Shown: positions 40,124-58,586 of the stretch, in pieces | Layout: each line of letters starts with the position of its first letter | Numbering within the stretch: the first letter of the stretch is position 1 | Origin: Eledone cirrhosa | Lineage: Eukaryota | NCBI GenBank assembly: GCA_964016885.1 | Contig: OZ024757.1 | Span: forward strand, 25,544,001-25,608,000 | Reading direction: 5' to 3' | Length of the DNA: 64,000 nt | Made by a program: the position numbers and the translations under genes | The notes under the pieces: generated by a model | What the model saw: only the letters and a program-made list of their open reading frames with translations | Databases searched by the model: none | What the model was told of the DNA's origin: nothing

Positions 40124-40128
<5 letters not shown>

Positions 40129-41154
40129 TATTTTCCGTTGTGTTGTAATATAAATATTACACACAGTAGATTATCAGCTCACGTAGAGTTTGCTCGACGG
40201 TTCCAGTTGTAGTTCCAAAAGTAATCCGGAGAAAAATAGAAAGATTTGAATGGATACAGTTTAGTTGAAAGGAATTTATTGACACGTGTTTCTATAACAG
40301 TTACATAACCTAAAACAGCTACTATCTACAAACTTTTAGTTATGCAGACATTCAATATTTCAATGTTATTATTTACTGTCAAGGGCGGTGGATTGGCAGT
40401 ATCGGTAGAAGGTCGGAGGCCATGCTTTCCAGCATAGTTACGTCCCTTTACGATCTGAGTTCAAATCCCGCCGAGGTTTACTTTGCCTTTCATCCTTATG
40501 GGGTCGATAAAATAAAGTACCAGTAATGAACTGGGATAATTGCTGGCCTTGTGCCAAAAGTAGAAACAATTATTTACTGTCATTTCATCAGAATAATATT
40601 ACTGAGGACCTATTTAGTTTTTATAGAGAATATTAGGAGGGAGGGGTGAAGTTGTTAGAAGAATAGTTGAAGGAGTGGTTTTTCGATAGCAGTGAGAATT
40701 CTTGGTGGCAGTGAGTAATTAGATTCCCATCTGTTGTTTTGACATTTTTTATAGAATATATTATTGGTTATTTTTCTAAATCTATAGAAGGATTAGAGAT
40801 AGTAAAGATATGCGTCGTTGGTTTTGTGTTTGCACTTAATTAACATTCAGACTTAAATTTTTCTTTCAAGTGTACGTATCCTTTCACCCACGCATTCACA
40901 CATAAATATATTTGCACACCTCTACAAAATACATATACTCACAATTCACATATTCATACTTACATATATATACACATGCATACACATATATATATACACA
41001 TGTATTCATGTACATACATACGCGCTCATGTGTATACATTTTCATACTCAACTTATCTTTATATACACACGTATAGACACACACTTATATACATACATAC
41101 TCTAGTCCATGTGTACACACATACACATCTATATACACATATATACATACATAC

Positions 41155-41243
<89 letters not shown>

Positions 41244-41682
41244 CACTTTAATACATGAATACACTTACATCTAACTATACACATCAAACATATATATATA
41301 TTTACTTATTTATATACATTTTCACATATATATACATACTTATGGACGTTTTTAGACACATTCATTATCGCATATTTGCACCTATTCTCATCAGCATATC
41401 TTTCCATTATTAGTGTGGTAATTTAAGGTTATTAATATATGTTGAGAAGAGATTGTTTTTATATTTTTCTAACTAGATTAAGGTTTATATATTGGGGGAT
41501 GTCCCTCTTTTATGTAATATTCGGCTTGTAGTGGGAAAAAAGGGGTTTTTTCCCACTACAATGAATGTGTCTAAAAACGTCCATAAGTATGTATATATAT
41601 GTGAAAATGTATATAAATAAGTAAATATATATATATGTTTGATGTGTATAGTTAGATGTAAGTGTATTCATGTATTAAAGTG

Positions 41683-41727
<45 letters not shown>

Positions 41728-42437
41728 GTATGTATGTATATATGTGTATATAGGTGTGTATGTGTGTACACATGGACTAGAGTATGTATGTATATAAGTG
41801 TGTCTATACGTGTGTATATAAAGATAAGTTGAGTATGAAAATGTATACACATGAGCGCGTATGTATGTACATGAATACATGTGTGTATATATATGTGTAT
41901 GCATGTGTATATATATGTAAGTATGAATATGTGAATTGTGAGTATATGTATTTTGTAGAGGTGTGCAAATATATTTATGTGTGAATGCGTGGGTGAAAGC
42001 ATACGTACACTTGAAAGAAAAATTTAAGTCTGAATGTTAATTAAGTGCAAACACAAAACCAACGACGCATATCTTTACTATCTCTAATCCTTCTATAGAT
42101 TTAGAAAAATAACCAATAATATATTCTATAAAAAATGTCAAAACAACAGATGGGAATCTAATTACTCACTGCCACCAAGAATTCTCACTGCTATCGAAAA
42201 ACCACTCCTTCAACTATTCTTCTAACAACTTCACCCCTCCCTCCTAATATTCTCTATAAAAACTAAATAGGTCCTCAGTAATATTATTCTGATGAAATGA
42301 CAGTAAATAATAACATTGAAATATTGAATGTCTGCATAACTAAAAGTTTGTAGATAGCAGCTGTTTTAGGTTATGTAACTGTTATAGAAACACGTGTCAA
42401 TAAATTCCTTTCAACTAAACTGTATCCATTCAAATCT

Positions 42438-42443
<6 letters not shown>
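40124..42443. mobile_element. ORF-less fold-back insertion of the same PLE (inverted + direct pLTR)
   Basis: 40124-41546 is the reverse complement of PLE 56451-57538 joined to 53999-54112. 41561-42443 is a direct copy of 56633-57538. TA flanks. Confidence 0.92.
40382..40568 (+). mobile_element. Family-1 SINE with a 14-bp TSD, nested in the PLE pLTR
   Basis: attatttactgtca at 40368-40381 and 40569-40582. The empty site is visible at ~53430-53443. Confidence 0.93.
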
Positions 42444-44485: not shown

Positions 44486-47400
44486 GACCAAGGAAACAAT
44501 GTTTCCATTGGTCTTTCCATTGCTAACATTATTCTGCCAGTCGCAGCTCCTGGAATAAGACAGCAGTCGATCGTCAAATGGGACCGAGGAAACAATGTTT
44601 CCATTGGTCTTTCTATTGCCGATAGAATGACCTGGCAGAAAAAAAGGAACCGATCGTCAGATGTGACCAAGAAAACAATGTTTCCATTGGTCTTCCTATT
44701 GCTGATACTATCTGCCGGTTACAACAACTGGCAGAAAAAAGAAATGAATCGTCAGATGTGACCAAGAAAACAATGTTTCCATTGGTCTTCCTATTGCTGA
44801 TACTATCTGCCGGTTACAACAACTGGCAGAAAAAAGAAATGAATCGTCAGATGTGACCAAGAAAACAATGTTTCCATTGGTCTTCCTATTGCTGATACTA
44901 TCTGCCGGTTACAACAACTGGCAGAAAAAAGAAATGAATCGTCAGATGTGACCAAGAAAACAATGTTTCCATTGGTCTTCCTATTGCTGATACTATCTGC
45001 CGGTTACAACAACTGGCAGAAAAAAGAAATGAATCGTCAGATGTGACCAAGAAAACAATGTTTCCATTGGTCTTCCTATTGCTGATACTATCTGCCGGTT
45101 ACAACAACTGGCAGAAAAAAGAAATGAATCGTCAGATGTGACCAAGAAAACAATGTTTCCATTGGTCTTCCTATTGCTGATACTATCTGCCGGTTACAAC
45201 AACTGGCAGAAAAAAGAAATGAATCGTCAGATGTGACCAAGAAAACAATGTTTCCATTGGTCTTCCTATTGCTGATACTATCTGCCGGTTACAACAACTG
45301 GCAGAAAAAAGAAATGAATCGTCAGATGTGACCAAGAAAACAATGTTTCCATTGGTCTTCCTATTGCTGATACTATCTGCCGGTTACAACAACTGGCAGA
45401 AAAAAGAAATGAATCGTCAGATGTGACCAAGAAAACAATGTTTCCATTGGTCTTCCTATTGCTGATACTATCTGCCGGTTACAACAACTGGCAGAAAAAA
45501 GAAATGAATCGTCAGATGTGACCAAGAAAACAATGTTTCCATTGGTCTTCCTATTGCTGATACTATCTGCCGGTTACAACAACTGGCAGAAAAAAGAAAT
45601 GAATCGTCAGATGTGACCAAGAAAACAATGTTTCCATTGGTCTTCCTATTGCTGATACTATCTGCCGGTTACAACAACTGGCAGAAAAAAGAAATGAATC
45701 GTCAGATGTGACCAAGAAAACAATGTTTCCATTGGTCTTCCTATTGCTGATACTATCTGCCGGTTACAACAACTGGCAGAAAAAAGAAATGAATCGTCAG
45801 ATGTGACCAAGAAAACAATGTTTCCATTGGTCTTCCTATTGCTGATACTATCTGCCGGTTACAACAACTGGCAGAAAAAAGAAATGAATCGTCAGATGTG
45901 ACCAAGAAAACAATGTTTCCATTGGTCTTCCTATTGCTGATACTATCTGCCGGTTACAACAACTGGCAGAAAAAAGAAATGAATCGTCAGATGTGACCAA
46001 GAAAACAATGTTTCCATTGGTCTTCCTATTGCTGATACTATCTGCCGGTTACAACAACTGGCAGAAAAAAGAAATGAATCGTCAGATGTGACCAAGAAAA
46101 CAATGTTTCCATTCGTCTTTCTATTGCTGATACTATCTGATGGTCACAGCTCCTGGCAGAAGTAAGGACCTGATGACCTGATTGGACCAAGGAAACAATG
46201 TCTCCATAGGTTTTTCTGTTGCTGATACTATCTGCTGGCCACAGCTCCTGGCAGAAGAAGGGAATCAATCGTTAGATTGCACCAAGGAAACAATATTGCC
46301 ATTGGTCTTTCTATTGCTGATATCATCTGCCAGTTACAACACCGGGCAGAAAAAAGAAATGGATCGTCAGATGTGACCAAGAAAACAATGTTTCCATTGG
46401 TCTTTCTATTGCTGATACTATCTGCCAGTCCTGGCAGAAGTAAGGAGCTGATGATCTGATAGGTGCTGATCAGACCAATGAAACAACGTTTTCATTAGTC
46501 CTTCCATTGCTTATACTGTCTGTTGGTTACAACACCTGTCGGAAGAAAGGTGCTAATCGTCAGACTGGACACAGGAAACAATGTTTCCATTGGTCTTTCT
46601 ATTGCTGATACTATCTGCCAGACCTGGCAGAAGTAAGGAGCTGATGATCTGATAGGTGCTGATCAGACCAATGAAACAACGTTTTCATTAGTCCTTCCAT
46701 TGCTTATACTGTCTGTTGGTTACAACACCTGTCGGAAGAAAGGTGCTAATCGTCAGACTGGACACAGGAAACAATGTTTCCATTGGTCTTTCTATTGCTG
46801 ATACTATCTGCCAGACCTGGCAGAAGTAAGGAGCTGATGATCTGATAGGTGCTGATCAGACCAATGAAACAACGTTTTCATTAGTCCTTCCATTGCTTAT
46901 ACTGTCTGTTGGTTACAACACCTGTCGGAAGAAAGGTGCTAATCGTCAGACTGGACACAGGAAACAATGTTTCCATTGGTCTTTCTATTGCTGATACTAT
47001 CTGCCAGACCTGGCAGAAGTAAGGAGCTGATGATCTGATAGGTGCTGATCAGACCAATGAAACAACGTTTTCATTAGTCCTTCCATTGCTTATACTGTCT
47101 GTTGGTTACAACACCTGTCGGAAGAAAGGTGCTAATCGTCAGACTGGACACAGGAAACAATGTTTCCATTGGTCTTTCTATTGCTGATACTATCTGCCAG
47201 ACCTGGCAGAAGTAAGGAGCTGATGATCTGATAGGTGCTGATCAGACCAATGAAACAACGTTTTCATTAGTCCTTCCATTGCTTATACTGTCTGTTGGTT
47301 ACAACACCTGTCGGAAGAAAGGTGCTAATCGTCAGACTGGACACAGGAAACAATGTTTCCATTGGTCTTTCTATTGCTGATACTATCTGCCAGACCTGGC

Positions 47401-53131: not shown

Positions 53132-53193
<62 letters not shown>

Positions 53194-54163
53194 TATTTTC
53201 CGTTGTGTTGTAATATAAATATTACACACAGTAGATTATCAGCTCACGTAGAGTTTGCTCGACGGTTCCAGTTGTAGTTCCAAAAGTAATCCGGAGAAAA
53301 ATAGAAAGATTTGAATGGATACAGTTTAGTTGAAAGGAATTTATTGACACGTGTTTCTATAACAGTTACATAACCTAAAACAGCTATCTACAAACTTTTA
53401 GTTATGCAGACATTCAATATTTCAATGTTATTATTTACTGTCATTTCATCAGAATAATATTACTGAGGACCTGTTTAGTTTTTATAGAGAATATTAGGAG
53501 GGAGGGGTGAAGTTGTTAGAAGAATAGTTGAAGGAGTGGTTTTTCGATAGCAGTGAGAATTCTTGGTGGCAGTGAGTAATTAGATTCCCATCTGTTGTTT
53601 TGACATTTTTTATAGAATATATTATTGGTTATTTTAAATCTATAGAAGGATTAGAGATAGTAAAGATATGCGTGGTTGGTTTTGTGTTTGCACTTAATTA
53701 ACATTCAGACTTAAATTTTTCTTTCAAGTGTACGTATCCTTTCACCCACGCATTCACACACAAATATATTTGCACACCTCTACAAAATACATATACTCAC
53801 AATTCACATATTCTATAAAAACTAAACAGGTCCTCAGTAATATTATTCTGATGAAATGACAGTAAATAATAACATTGAAATATTGAATGTCTGCATAACT
53901 AAAAGTTTGTAGATAGCTGTTTTAGGTTATGTAACTGTTATAGAAACACGTGTCAATAAATTCCTTTCAACTAAACTGTATCCATTCAAATCTTTCTATT
54001 TTTCTCCGGATTACTTTTGGAACTACAACTGGAACCGTCGAGCAAACTCTACGTGAGCTGATAATCTACTGTGTGTAATATTTATATTACAACACAACGG
54101 AAAATACTGTATATTTACCTCCTGTAAAGTCGAGCAACCCACACAGCAAACGCAACCACAACA

Positions 54164-56487
54164 ATGGAAAAACACTACCTGGATATGTCACTCAAAAACA
54201 TACCAACCCAAGGTAGAAAGGAATATTTATTGAGCATGATTCAAAAAACTAATGAATTCATTCGACGTGTCAGGTGGAAAACGCTCCACTATGATAGAAG
54301 CCGTATGAACTCAACATTAGAAAGTGGTGTAAACAACAAATTCGGTTTTAGGACTTGTAAAAACCCACCCACCAACCCACTATTAGATGCATTTGAGCAG
54401 GACCTTATGAACTTAATCCTTAAAATTAAATTCAAAGGACGCAACACCAACAGCAAATTACAGAAAGATATAAAAAAAACTACTGGACGACCTTAAAAAC
54501 ACCAAAGGAATTGTAGTAAAAGCGGACAAAACATCAAACCTGTACACTATGGATTGCACTACATACAACAACTTCATTCGAAAAGAATTACATAAAAAAT
54601 ATAGAAAAACGAGTGAAGTAACCCTTAAGCACATCAATGATGAGGCATGCGAAATAGTGAAAAATCTCGGAATCGAAGATAGGACAGGACCACTCTTACC
54701 GGCGGTACCCACCTTCAATCTTAAGGACCACAAGGTAAACTTTGATAATGACCCTAAAATTAGATTAATCTGCCCCTCTAAATCAGATATAGGTAAAATA
54801 AGCAAATATATCTTAGATAGAATCATCCCCCAAATTAAGGCTAAGGTTAACATTAAACTCTGGGGGAAGACCCAAGAAGCAATAAGATGGTTTAATAGCA
54901 TTAGCAATAAGAATAAATCTAAGTTTATCCAGTTTGATATCGATGAATATTACTCATCGATATCACCTGAAACTTTGAATAGAGCCATTAAGTTTGCTAA
55001 GGATAACTCTGACCTTACAAACGATGAAATTAAGATTATATTAGAAGCTAGGAAAACTATAGTCAAATTTGAGAACAGTTATTGGGTACGTAAAGATAGA
55101 CCCTCTAACTTTGACATAACAATGGGCTCTAACGATTCGGCGGAAATAACTGATATTGTGGGGTTATTTATCGCCTTTAGACTCCAGGAAAAATTCAGCA
55201 ATCTCCACGGCGGAATATACCGCGACGATGTTCTCCTCCTAGCTAAAAACCTTAATAACCAAAAACTAGAAAAACTACGCAAAGATATAAGAAAACTACT
55301 ACTCGAAATAGGACTAACTATAACATATGAATACAACCTTAAAGTAGTTAACTTCCTGGATGTCACACTCAATTTAAACTCTGGTTTGATTAAACCGTTT
55401 CATAAATTGAACGAAAATCTCAAATACGTAAATGTTGGGTCTAACCACCCCATCTCTATAATTAAATCTATCCCTAAAAATATTTCCCTTAGAATCTCGG
55501 GTCTATCTTCTAACATACAAGTATTTAAGGAACACGCCGAGTACTACGATAACGCCCTTAGTAAAGCAGGCTACCTCAACAAAATAGAGTACATAGATGG
55601 GAACAATCAAAACACCCAAAATAAATCCCACATAGGTAGATATAATAACACAACACCAAACCACACTTACTACCATAGTATGCACACCAGTAAACCAACA
55701 AACAAAACTAATAGAAAGCGATGCAAAGAGTACTTATGGTATAACCCCGAATACAATAGCTCCATTAGTACAAATTTACCAGTACTCTTCTTTAAAATAA
55801 TTAAAAGACATTTTCCCACATCACACAAATACCACAAAATCCTAAACCCTACCACTATAAGACTGTCATACTCTACAGCGTTAAACCTTGAACAACACAT
55901 AAAAAAGATCAATACTAGAAGGTTAAACGAAAACACGAAGAACTTAAGTACAAAGAACACAAAAAAAAACAGTAGACAATACACTACAGAACATAAATAA
56001 ACCACACCTAAGTTCGTCCGCAATACTACTCCAGAGAAAACCCAACGTACACAACTGTAACTGCACCTATCCTGACAACTGCCCCCTCGGCAATAACTGC
56101 CTGGAAAAAAATATTATTTATAAGTGTACCATTAAATCCGGAGGCAACGAGTGGTATTACGTGGGATCAACGGCAACATCGTTTAAATCTCGATTGTATA
56201 GGCATTCTTACTCAATAAAACACCAGAGCCAAAGAAATGTAACAACTTTAGCAGAAAAAGCTTGGACGCTCAGGGATAGCGACCAAAAGTTTACCCTAAA
56301 ATGGGAAAAATTAGCTAAAACCCAAAGCTTTTCCAGGAGCCAAAATTTCTGCAAATTGTGTAATCTTGAGATTTATTACATAATCACACACAAGAAGAAA
56401 CTGCTGAATAACAGAATTGAACGAACATTATTCTGCCGTCACAGAACTAAAACCCTTTTTTCCCACTACAAGCCGAATATTACATAA
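54164..56487 (+). CDS. PLE reverse transcriptase + GIY-YIG endonuclease polyprotein (~773 aa after removing two extra A's)
   Basis: RT motifs SLKNIP, VKADKTSNLY, FDIDEYYSSI, TMGSNDSAE, YRDD and FLDV. Linker CNCTYPDNCPLGNNC. Endonuclease motifs NIIY...YVGST..FKSR...H, CKLCNLE and LLN. Frameshifts at A8 54472-54479 and A9 55961-55969. Confidence 0.93.
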
Positions 56488-56805
56488 AAGAGGGACATCC
56501 CCCAACTATATAAACCTTAATCTAGTTAGAAAAATATAAAAACAATCTCTTCTCAACATATATTAATAACCTTAAATTACCATACTAATAATGAAAAGAT
56601 ATGCTGATGAGAATAGGTACAAATATGCGATAATGAATGTGTCTAAAAACGTCCATAAGTATGTATATATATGTGAAAATGTATATAAATAAGTAAATAT
56701 ATATATATGTTTGATGTGTATAGTTAGATGTAAGTGTATTCATGTATTAAAGTGCTTATATATATATATATATGTATATGTGTGTATATGTATGTGTATG
56801 TATAT

Positions 56806-56837
<32 letters not shown>

Positions 56838-57381
56838 GTATGTATATATGAGTATATGGATGTGTAAGTATGTGTATGTGTGTACACATGGACTAGAGTA
56901 TGTATGTATATATGTGTGTGTCTATACGTGTGTATATAAAGATAAGTTGAGTATGAAAACGTATACACATGAGCGCGTATGTATGTACATGAATACATGC
57001 ATGTGTATATATATGTAAGTATGAATATGTGAATTGTGAGTATATGTATTTTGTAGAGGTGTGCAAATATATTTGTGTGTGAATGCGTGGGTGAAAGGAT
57101 ACGTACACTTGAAAGAAAAATTTAAGTCTGAATGTTAATTAAGTGCAAACACAAAACCAACCACGCATATCTTTACTATCTCTAATCCTTCTATAGATTT
57201 AGAAAAATAACCAATAATATATTCTATAAAAAATGTCAAAACAACAGATGGGAATCTAATTACTCACTGCCACCAAGAATTCTCACTGCTATCGAAAAAC
57301 CACTCCTTCAACTATTCTTCTAACAACTTCACCCCTCCCTCCTAATATTCTCTATAAAAACTAAACAGGTCCTCAGTAATA

Positions 57382-57430
57382 TTATTCTGATGAAATGACA
57401 GTAAATAATAACATTGAAATATTGAATGTC
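57382..57430 (+). ncRNA. Atypical hammerhead motif of the PLE pLTR (also 53843-53891 +, ~53410-53457 -, ~42285-42332 +)
   Basis: tatt-CTGATGA-aatg...catt-GAAA-tat-TG-aatg. The core and stem II are canonical but position 17 is G. Confidence 0.6.
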
Positions 57431-57532
57431 TGCATAACTAAAAGTTTGTAGATAGCTGTTTTAGGTTATGTAACTGTTATAGAAACACGTGTCAATAAAT
57501 TCCTTTCAACTAAACTGTATCCATTCAAATCT

Positions 57533-57603
<71 letters not shown>

Positions 57604-57605
<2 letters not shown>

Positions 57606-58078
57606 CAATATTAAATAAATGGAAACTATATTTATAAAACCATATTTATTTCATTATATATATTTCGGGGATATCATATTAACAATATGCTATGCCTTCC
57701 TCAGACAAAATACAATATAAACAGTTTTATAGATAAATAGATTCGACATACCGTTATAACACCGACTTCCATTTGAAGAGGTTTAAGCTGGCAGTCACTT
57801 CCAGCTTAAACCTCTTCAAATGGAAGTCGGTGTTATAACGGTATGTCGAATCTATTTATCTATAAAACTGTTTATATTGTATTTTGTCTGAGGAAGGCAT
57901 AGCATATTGTTAATATGATATCCCCGAAATATATATAATGAAATAAATATGGTTTTATAAATATAGTTTCCATTTATTTAATATTGTAAATATACTCCAA
58001 ATATTTGTCGAGTGCTTTTATATCAGTTATAAATATTTACTAGTTGTAACCCAACAATTTTAAATATAACTTTCCATG
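57604..58078. mobile_element. Family A fold-back element with HHR at 57880-57945 (CTGAGGA)
   Basis: Palindrome ~57604-57988 with a small loop at ~57792-57800, plus tail. Confidence 0.88.
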
Positions 58079-58157: not shown

Positions 58158-58555
58158 GGAGGTGAGTTTTATTGTAGTACAATAAAGCAATGCAGATATC
58201 GGATAAGAAGCCCTCTACAGTTTGTAGGACTGGAGTATACATAATATATAAGAACAAAAGATGGTTAAAAGAGTTCCATGTATTTTATTATGCGCATTTC
58301 AAAAACAAATATCATCATGAGATGATATCTGCGTTTTCATCAGATAAAACATGAAGACATGATATGAAGGTTAAAAAACACCTGTGGATAGTTCAGTTTT
58401 AAATCAACATATCAGGTGTTTTTTAACCTTCATATCATGTCTTCATGTTTTATCTGATGAAAACACAAATATTATTGCATGATGATATTTGTTTTTGAAA
58501 TGCGCATAATAAAATACATGGAACTCTTTTAACCATCTTCTGTTCTTATATATTA
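58155..58555. mobile_element. Family B fold-back element with HHRs at 58446-58516 (+) and ~58281-58351 (-)
   Basis: Same arms as the 7078-7495 copy. Confidence 0.88.
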
Positions 58556-58586
58556 TATATATATATATATATATATTTATTATATT

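What the first reader, a model, noticed from the sequence alone, without database searches (positions are those of the whole stretch)
53190..57538. Potentially active PLE with a CxC-x5-C linker, best fitting the Hydra-type clade
Seen: a continuous ~773-aa RT-EN reading with no internal stops once one A is removed from each of two homopolymers, near-identical pLTR copies, YRDD, a CNC-x5-CPL-x3-C linker, a GIY-YIG variant (IIY/YVG) and a C-terminal CKLC. Inference: C-terminal EN, this Cys pattern and (TA)n targeting match my recollection of the Hydra PLE clade rather than Penelope/Poseidon, but this needs a tree. It is a candidate microsatellite-specific integration enzyme.
Basis: partly seen in the sequence, partly recalled or inferred. 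Interest (0 to 1): 0.75.

Follow-up and report, generated by a model that had tools for sequence, protein, structure and literature searches.

The report
Hydra-type retroelement, fixed two-ended footprint
This is a broken copy of a young, abundant jumping-gene family of the known Hydra type, and its back-to-back insertions into TA repeats pair one short end with one long end and mostly repeat 16 letters of target, which suggests the enzyme likely cuts both DNA strands and copies its RNA from both cut ends.

Summary
Observation largely confirmed. The element fits the Hydra clade of Penelope-like elements (Craig 2021): RWK, DKT, CxCx5C, CxxC/CxH, no CCHH, (TA)n targets. An octopus Hydra family is already published, so this is a new family of a known kind. 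This copy has two +1 A frameshifts, but 13 of the 30 closest copies carry the intact 773-aa ORF; activity applies to the family, not this copy. The interest is the insertion footprint. There are two fixed 3' ends 113 nt apart (1,412 and 1,048 exact TA junctions), each sharing TAT with the target. All 73 of 73 back-to-back insertions pair one of each. The two arms share haplotype (50 of 50). Interruptions in the TA flanks mirror across the insert at exactly 16 nt in 18 of 25 informative cases; this copy itself does not fit. Likely mechanism: a staggered double cut, with both ends priming cDNA on one RNA. This scan already noted the end-pairing on other DNA, and the one-sided tail is in print. 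I found no 16-nt duplication for Hydra elements in print. The hammerhead is incomplete, no RNA run was listed, and the tree held no named references.

The parts
53137..53190 (.). (TA)n target, left flank; read outward from end B it begins TG then (TA)n
53191..53813 (-). Inverted 5'-truncated arm ending at the long (tailed) end B; equals element 57023-57535 plus the tail
   Evidence: self-BLAST; junction with 2-nt overlap
53812..53996 (+). 5' pLTR (truncated upstream tandem copy), seamless with the leader
   Evidence: 188 of 188 nt identical to 57351-57538
53997..54109 (+). 113-nt tail between end A (after 53996, followed by TAT) and end B (after 54109, followed by TATAT); also the 5' leader of the ORF
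53997..54053 (+). Motif behind end A: TAT-TTTT-CTC ... CGAGC-AAA-CTCT (small hairpins; candidate start signal)
   Evidence: similar motif behind both ends of a second Hydra family, by eye
54110..54140 (+). Motif behind end B: TATAT-TTAC-CTC ... CGAGC-AA
54164..56487 (+). RT-EN ORF (773 aa in intact copies), here broken by two +1 A insertions
54472..54479 (+). A8 run, first frameshift (7 of 25 aligned copies carry the extra A)
55961..55969 (+). A9 run, second frameshift (10 of 25 aligned copies carry extra A), detaches the endonuclease
55218..55229 (+). RT catalytic YRDD
   Evidence: fold matches telomerase RTs
56056..56100 (+). CxCx5C linker plus PLGNNC
   Evidence: C633, C639, C645 invariant in 120 aligned homologues
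56107..56445 (+). GIY-YIG-type endonuclease without CCHH, with CxxC and CxH flanking E and N
   Evidence: profile match to Pfam-confirmed GIY-YIG domains of this genome, prob. 94.8
56488..57350 (+). Long 3' UTR with an internal TA/TG-rich tract (about 56640-57080) and a stemless CTGATGA at 56604
57387..57430 (+). Hammerhead-like core (CUGAUGA, 4-bp stem II, GAAA, 5-bp stem III); stem I not closed. Also at 53848 (+) and 53452 (-)
   Evidence: no Rfam hammerhead match
57351..57535 (+). 3' pLTR ending at the short (tail-less) end A
57536..57570 (.). (TA)n target, right flank

Best explanation
This is a frameshifted copy of a young Hydra-clade Penelope-like retrotransposon family that inserts into (TA)n, and its intact copies likely integrate by cutting both strands about 16 nt apart and reverse-transcribing one RNA from both cut ends. 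Shown: intact sister ORFs, telomerase-like RT fold, GIY-YIG-type domain, TA flanks, two fixed 3' ends, strict A/B pairing, arms of one haplotype, mirrored 16-nt flank. Inferred: the endonuclease nicks top and bottom strands leaving 3' overhangs; one DNA end pairs through TAT with RNA site A and the other through TATAT with site B, 113 nt downstream; two antisense cDNAs grow and are joined head to head at 1-6-nt overlaps; fill-in duplicates the target. Single-armed copies would arise when only one end yields a retained cDNA. This copy was likely mobilised in trans or broken at slippage-prone A runs.
For: Motifs; tree 100/100 apart from Neptune-like and Poseidon-like RTs of the same genome; model pLDDT 90, top Foldseek hits telomerases. 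End counts: A motif 2,948, of which 1,412 run into (TA)4 and 1,177 read on; B 1,048 into (TA)4, 131 read on. First 30 A sites in genome order: 16 terminal, 16 of 16 in TA repeats, against 5.3% and 1.6% background. Pairing 42 of 42, 14 of 14, 17 of 17. Mirror length 16 in 5 of 8 (control 1 of 56), then 13 of 17 in loci chosen on one flank only. Arms concordant at an indel in 50 of 50 (0.50 expected), at SNPs 44 of 44 and 51 of 51. Arm reach within 12 nt in 6 of 40 versus 0.62 by permutation. In vitro, the anole PLE cuts and extends both strands from two internal RNA sites (PMC11167929).
Against: No biochemistry or RNA data for this family. Seven of 25 informative pairs do not give 16 (one gives 18, six none), and the window copy does not fit either (G at position 2 of the B flank, no mirrored C). 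The stagger could be 8-16 nt because the shared TA letters cannot be assigned. Haplotype concordance also follows if one source locus or one subfamily was active at a time. Arm lengths show no order (A longer 22, B longer 17 of 40). A second Hydra family gave one A/A pair among 12 two-armed loci. The anole enzyme starts at sites not homologous to the target. The tree's ingroup was collected by similarity to the query and lacks named references, Nematis and Naiad.
Confidence: 0.62

Rival explanations
1. Same two-ended priming, but the two arms are copied from two RNA molecules held by an asymmetric complex.
For: The arms overlap in sequence and neither is consistently longer; in the window copy the A arm exceeds one unit and passes through site B. 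Haplotype concordance is expected if one locus is active at a time.
Against: Excess of near-equal arm reaches (6 of 40 within 12 nt, 0.62 expected); no mixed arms in 50 informative pairs although two haplotypes are equally common; two equivalent RNAs do not by themselves explain 73 of 73 A/B.
Confidence: 0.18
2. One priming event at B, then fold-back or self-priming and endonuclease resolution at A creates the inverted arm and the one-sided tail (the reading in PMC3846280 and PMC8557442).
For: Explains identical haplotypes, equal-reach pairs and the strict pairing; junction overlaps of 1-6 nt in 27 of 40.
Against: Simple fold-back of a B-primed cDNA makes the B arm always the longer; the A arm is longer in 22 of 40. 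Single-armed copies end at A or at B. The anole enzyme starts at both tail boundaries in vitro (PMC11167929).
Confidence: 0.12
3. The template is a hammerhead-cleaved, circularised monomer copied by rolling circle (proposed in PMC4209133); this concerns the template and could combine with two-ended priming.
For: Seamless tandem junctions and copies longer than one 3,539-nt unit; a hammerhead core in the pLTR.
Against: Stem I is not closed in the common variants and the core is predicted to be sequestered in a hairpin; none of 80 arm 5' ends falls at the predicted cleavage site; tandem read-through transcripts explain the junctions equally; hammerhead mutants did not affect anole PLE insertion (PMC11167929).
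Confidence: 0.12
4. The two frameshifts are assembly homopolymer errors and this copy is intact.
For: Both are +1 in A runs; extra A's are scattered over several haplotypes.
Against: All 4 copies sharing this copy's haplotype carry the second extra A; in two Illumina runs only 21 of about 34 and 7 of 17 reads over the first run lack an A (reads pool many copies and some end in the run).
Confidence: 0.2

Closest known systems
Hydra clade of C-terminal EN+ Penelope-like elements, incl. Hydra-1_Obim of Octopus bimaculoides (Craig et al. 2021, PMC8557442)
   Same: Single RT-EN ORF, RWK, DKT, CxCx5C, CxxC and CxH, no CCHH, (TA)n targets, pLTR, inverted 5'-truncated copy.
   Different: A distinct family (plainly different sequence from Hydra-1_Obim by eye; identity not computed). 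Unit 3.54 kb versus generally under 3 kb; 773 aa versus about 705, from two linker expansions; hammerhead lacks stem I; tail 113 nt versus 30-40 described for PLEs; a target duplication is measurable here.
Poseidon_Ac (PAc) of the green anole, in vitro (Frangieh et al. 2024, PMC11167929)
   Same: Two internal RT start sites bounding the tail; AT-rich targets; both strands cut and extended.
   Different: Other clade; PAc starts 111-118 nt inside the ORF at sites not homologous to the target, while here both sites lie before the ATG and share TAT/TATAT with the target; that paper (parts 1-2 of 4 read) reports no pairing rule or fixed stagger.
Adineta vaga Penelope elements (PMC3846280)
   Same: Inverted pLTRs, tail at the 3' end of one of them, target duplications.
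   Different: 31-bp tail, 8-10-bp duplications, low copy number; explained there by self-priming.
LINE-1 twin priming (recalled, not from a call)
   Same: Both target strands prime on one RNA and give a head-to-head inversion with microhomology.
   Different: L1's second primer lands at variable internal sites and the arms barely overlap; here both starts are fixed, near the 3' end, and the arms overlap.

Membership tests
Hydra clade PLE | Single ORF with RT and C-terminal GIY-YIG EN | tested here: met
   773-aa ORF in 13 of 30 copies; telomerase-like fold; EN profile match prob. 94.8. Pfam alone gave no hit.
Hydra clade PLE | RWK motif and DKT in place of DKG | tested here: met
   RWK aa 37, DKT aa 121; 118 and 136 of 143 full-length homologues match, 0 have DKG.
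Hydra clade PLE | CxCx5C linker; CxxC and CxH beside the conserved E and N | tested here: met
   CNCTYPDNC, CKLCNLE, LLN, CRH; same order as Fig. S7 text.
Hydra clade PLE | No CCHH motif in the EN | tested here: met
   One Cys only between IIY and YVG, against two in the genome's Neptune-like ENs.
Hydra clade PLE | No N-terminal EN or CxC domain, no IFD | tested here: met
   No CxC before residue 631; motif A-to-B spacing like the Hydra rows by eye; IFD not modelled separately.
Hydra clade PLE | Insertion into (TA)n | tested here: met
Hydra clade PLE | Canonical hammerhead ribozyme in the pLTR | tested here: inconclusive
   Core, stems II and III present, stem I unpaired; no Rfam match. Craig's table lists one Hydra family as HHR_core only. 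Cleavage untested.
Hydra clade PLE | RT groups with named Hydra references | tested here: inconclusive
   Groups 100/100 with 41 homologues, one of which (P0091) resembles Hydra-2_Amil by eye, apart from 6 outgroup rows; named references, Nematis, Naiad/Chlamys and TERT were not in the tree.
Hydra clade PLE | Generally short (under 3 kb) | tested here: not met
   Unit 3,539 nt; a tendency in the paper, not a criterion.
Neptune or Penelope/Poseidon | DKG and CCHH (Neptune also CX2-5CxxC linker) | tested here: not met
   DKT, no CCHH; 22-27% identity over part of the RT core to Neptune-like rows, no BLAST hit to the Poseidon-like rows.
Naiad/Chlamys | N-terminal EN, CxC motif, DKA | tested here: not met
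   EN is C-terminal.
Active element | Transcription and new insertions | not testable with these tools
   No RNA holder listed.

The most novel reading that the evidence does not exclude
Hydra PLEs integrate by an asymmetric double-primed reaction: a 16-nt staggered cut in (TA)n whose two 3' overhangs base-pair, telomerase-like, with two fixed TA-complementary sites on a single RNA, one site per strand, each marked by a repeated RNA motif. This would explain the PLE tail, inverted pLTRs and microsatellite targeting in one step, and this family offers an intact enzyme, a 170-nt substrate and an exact predicted cut.
Probability: 0.4. Interest if true: 0.72.

Novelty: new member of a known kind. 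Interest (0 to 1): 0.5.

Why it matters
How PLEs, the closest mobile relatives of telomerase, make their inverted repeats, tails and microsatellite bias is named as open in PMC8557442, which also says target duplications often could not be discerned in microsatellites (said of Naiad and Chlamys). This family turns that into numbers: two start sites, one per cut end, and a 16-nt duplication. With intact ORFs it is a ready in vitro system for a clade that none of the papers I read tested. The classification itself is ordinary.

Tried and rejected
Pfam on the three pieces and on the intact protein: no hit. PDB by sequence or profile: nothing meaningful. Rfam: only microsatellite-driven miRNA noise. 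EN-only homologue search: none; the whole-model fold search covered residues 56-485 only, so the EN fold was not tested structurally. Homodimer prediction of residues 1-490: no answer. No RNA holder listed. Synonymous/non-synonymous counts were out of frame and are discarded. A 'trailing RT' model (B arm never longer than A) failed, 22 versus 17. A scrambled-order hammerhead using loop II as substrate strand gives a 7-bp stem I but only 2 bp of stem III (by eye); not adopted. The check for a 16-nt duplication at single-armed copies stopped after 11 of 19 loci; 3 of 11 had the 16-mer in the 5' flank, in TA-rich sequence where chance was not measured. The second family gave too few informative flanks to measure a duplication. 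One search, meant as a control, returned 8 forward and 0 reverse matches, so it may be incomplete; none paired with the ends, and 7 of its 8 loci fitted 16 with their own partners. Literature searches for a published pairing rule or fixed stagger found only the qualitative one-sided tail; Evgen'ev and Arkhipova 2005 and Arkhipova 2006 were not read and may say more.

Full report
Observation. The window (G000:C18:25544001-25608000) holds at 53191-57535 an inverted arm, a pLTR, a leader, an ORF in three pieces, a long 3' UTR and a second pLTR, between two TA tracts. The breaks are single extra A's at 54472-54479 and 55961-55969. Of 50 matches to the ORF, the best 30 were fetched; 13 encode 773 aa unbroken, and one of them (L008, P0001) served for all protein work. 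Contigs of runs X1, X2 and X6 lack one A at both runs. Among 25 of the 30 copies that aligned, mean divergence is 0.41% (a set chosen for closeness), 7 carry the first extra A and 10 the second; all 4 copies of this copy's haplotype share the second. So the family is young and has intact members, while this copy is probably truly broken.

Clade. Craig et al. 2021 (PMC8557442; I read the abstract, passages, sections 6, 11, 12, 15, 20 and supplement parts 1, 2, 52, 58 plus search hits) define Hydra by RWK, DKT, a CxCX5C linker, CxxC and CxH beside E and N, no CCHH, (TA)n targets and canonical hammerheads. P0001 has all the protein motifs and follows their Fig. S7 rows by eye. Their table already lists Hydra-1_Obim from Octopus bimaculoides. 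Searches returned 299 homologues (120 listed) and 12,267 representatives (150 listed), the best at 31-54% identity; of 143 of at least 650 aa, 118 have RWK/R, 136 DK[TS], none DKG. A tree of 48 RT cores (3 of 45 chosen homologues dropped for short or missing cores) separates P0001 and 41 homologues from four Neptune-like and two Poseidon-like RTs of the same genome at 100/100; those outgroup labels are mine, from motifs, and the ingroup was gathered by similarity to the query. The model (pLDDT 90.2) matches telomerase RTs first, and the C-terminus aligns to GIY-YIG domains with probability 94.8. One of the few named relatives is from Argonauta hians; the host was not identified.

Targeting and two ends. 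Exact genome-wide counts: the motif before end A occurs 2,948 times, 1,412 followed by (TA)4 and 1,177 reading on into the element, 359 neither; end B, 113 nt further, runs into (TA)4 1,048 times and on towards the ORF 131 times. Of the first 30 A sites in genome order, 14 read on and 16 are terminal, all 16 in TA repeats; background is 5.3% of window positions and 1.6% in 30 other loci. At A the element continues TAT, at B TATAT, so both ends share letters with the target.

Pairing rule. Using the listed 100 A and 78 B ends of the first 186 Mb of C1, 42 of 42 back-to-back pairs under 12 kb join one A and one B (p 2e-13 against 0.5; three other close neighbours were not back-to-back). Forty of the 88 unpaired ends were fetched: 14 had a partner, all A/B. 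Thirty-six further loci gave 17 pairs, all A/B, and 19 without partner. Total 73 of 73. A second Hydra family in this genome (709 aa, 39% identical) also has two ends about 88 nt apart, both followed by TAT; of 12 two-armed loci read by eye, 6 are A/B, 5 are A plus an arm running past A to the locus edge, and 1 is A/A with identical flanks. [quoted passage not shown] Earlier notes of this scan report the pairing on other DNA; I read them.

Target duplication. Interruptions in the TA flanks act as marks. In 54 sequence-checked pairs, 8 had a G or C within 16 nt of an end; in 5 the two flanks mirror each other over exactly 16 nt, against 1 of 56 mismatched pairings. I then chose loci on one flank only: 13 of 17 pairs gave 16, one 18, three none. 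The window copy does not fit. Because TAT and TATAT are shared with the element, the true stagger is 8-16 nt. The idea of looking was prompted in part by scan notes naming 13-16-bp duplications in other genomes.

One template? In 40 pairs neither arm is consistently longer (22 versus 17 with one tie, p 0.29) and 27 junctions overlap by 1-6 nt. Reaches agree within 12 nt in 6 of 40, against 0.62 by permutation. Across 71 pairs, both arms carry the same allele at a 3-nt indel in 50 of 50 scorable (0.50 expected) and at three SNPs in 44 of 44, 51 of 51 and 44 of 44. This fits one RNA, but also one active source at a time.

Mechanism. Shown are the enzyme domains, targets, ends, pairing, mirror length and haplotype sharing. 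Inferred is a double nick with 3' overhangs, each end annealing to one start site, two cDNAs joined by microhomology. The anole PLE cuts and extends both strands and starts at two internal sites that bound the tail (PMC11167929, parts 1-2 of 4), which supports the chemistry; its starts are not homologous to the target, a difference. Behind each of the four ends of the two families lies TAT..TT..CTC and then YGAGC (by eye), and a like arrangement stands at the 3' end of Hydra-2_Amil; this follows a lead from scan notes and is only partly tested.

Hammerhead. A core with stems II and III sits at 57387, but stem I does not close in the 12 commonest variants among 183 copies read, the core is predicted to lie in a hairpin, and no arm ends at the predicted cut. 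PLE hammerheads are weak and may need other factors (PMC4209133, passages), so this stays open. The retrozyme preprint 10.64898/2026.07.22.740005 (part 1 of 5, supplements not seen) and PMC8969392 (passages) added only background.

Verdict. Interest 0.5 rests on the footprint, which makes an open mechanistic question testable; the pairing is not new to this scan, and the 16-nt duplication for Hydra was not found in searches or in scan look-up.

Noticed in passing
window 40126-42440: Second two-armed copy of the same family (B end left, A end right) with a 190-nt repeat inserted at about 40382-40568 between 13-nt duplications.
   Followed up: partly
window 57598-57994 and 58236-58561: Two other near-perfect palindromic inserts in the neighbouring TA tracts, each with a CUGANGA core (57888, 58454); probably two-armed insertions of other PLE-driven families.
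   Followed up: partly
L196-L225 (e.g. L200:1501-3630): A second abundant Hydra family in this genome, 709 aa, many intact; its hammerhead has all three stems but the core reads CAGAAGA.
   Followed up: partly
runs X1, X2, X3, X6 on window 54000-56600: Sequence about 99% identical occurs in four differently coded organisms at very different depth (about 22, 6, thousands, hundreds); close kin, contamination or recent horizontal transfer cannot be told apart.
   Followed up: no
window 53827-53854 and 57366-57393: A near-palindrome overlaps the hammerhead core and puts a CUGAGGA core on the opposite strand; five arm 5' ends fall at 57386-57395 and five B arms stop at 54074-54083 in another hairpin.
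   Followed up: partly
L131, L133, L134, L141: Long Neptune-like and Poseidon-like PLE reading frames in the same genome.
   Followed up: partly
window 44545-46554: Homogeneous tandem array with a 95-nt period, 99% identical copies.
   Followed up: no
L233: The 5' side of one copy abuts the pLTR end of the second Hydra family with no TA tract visible between them.
   Followed up: no
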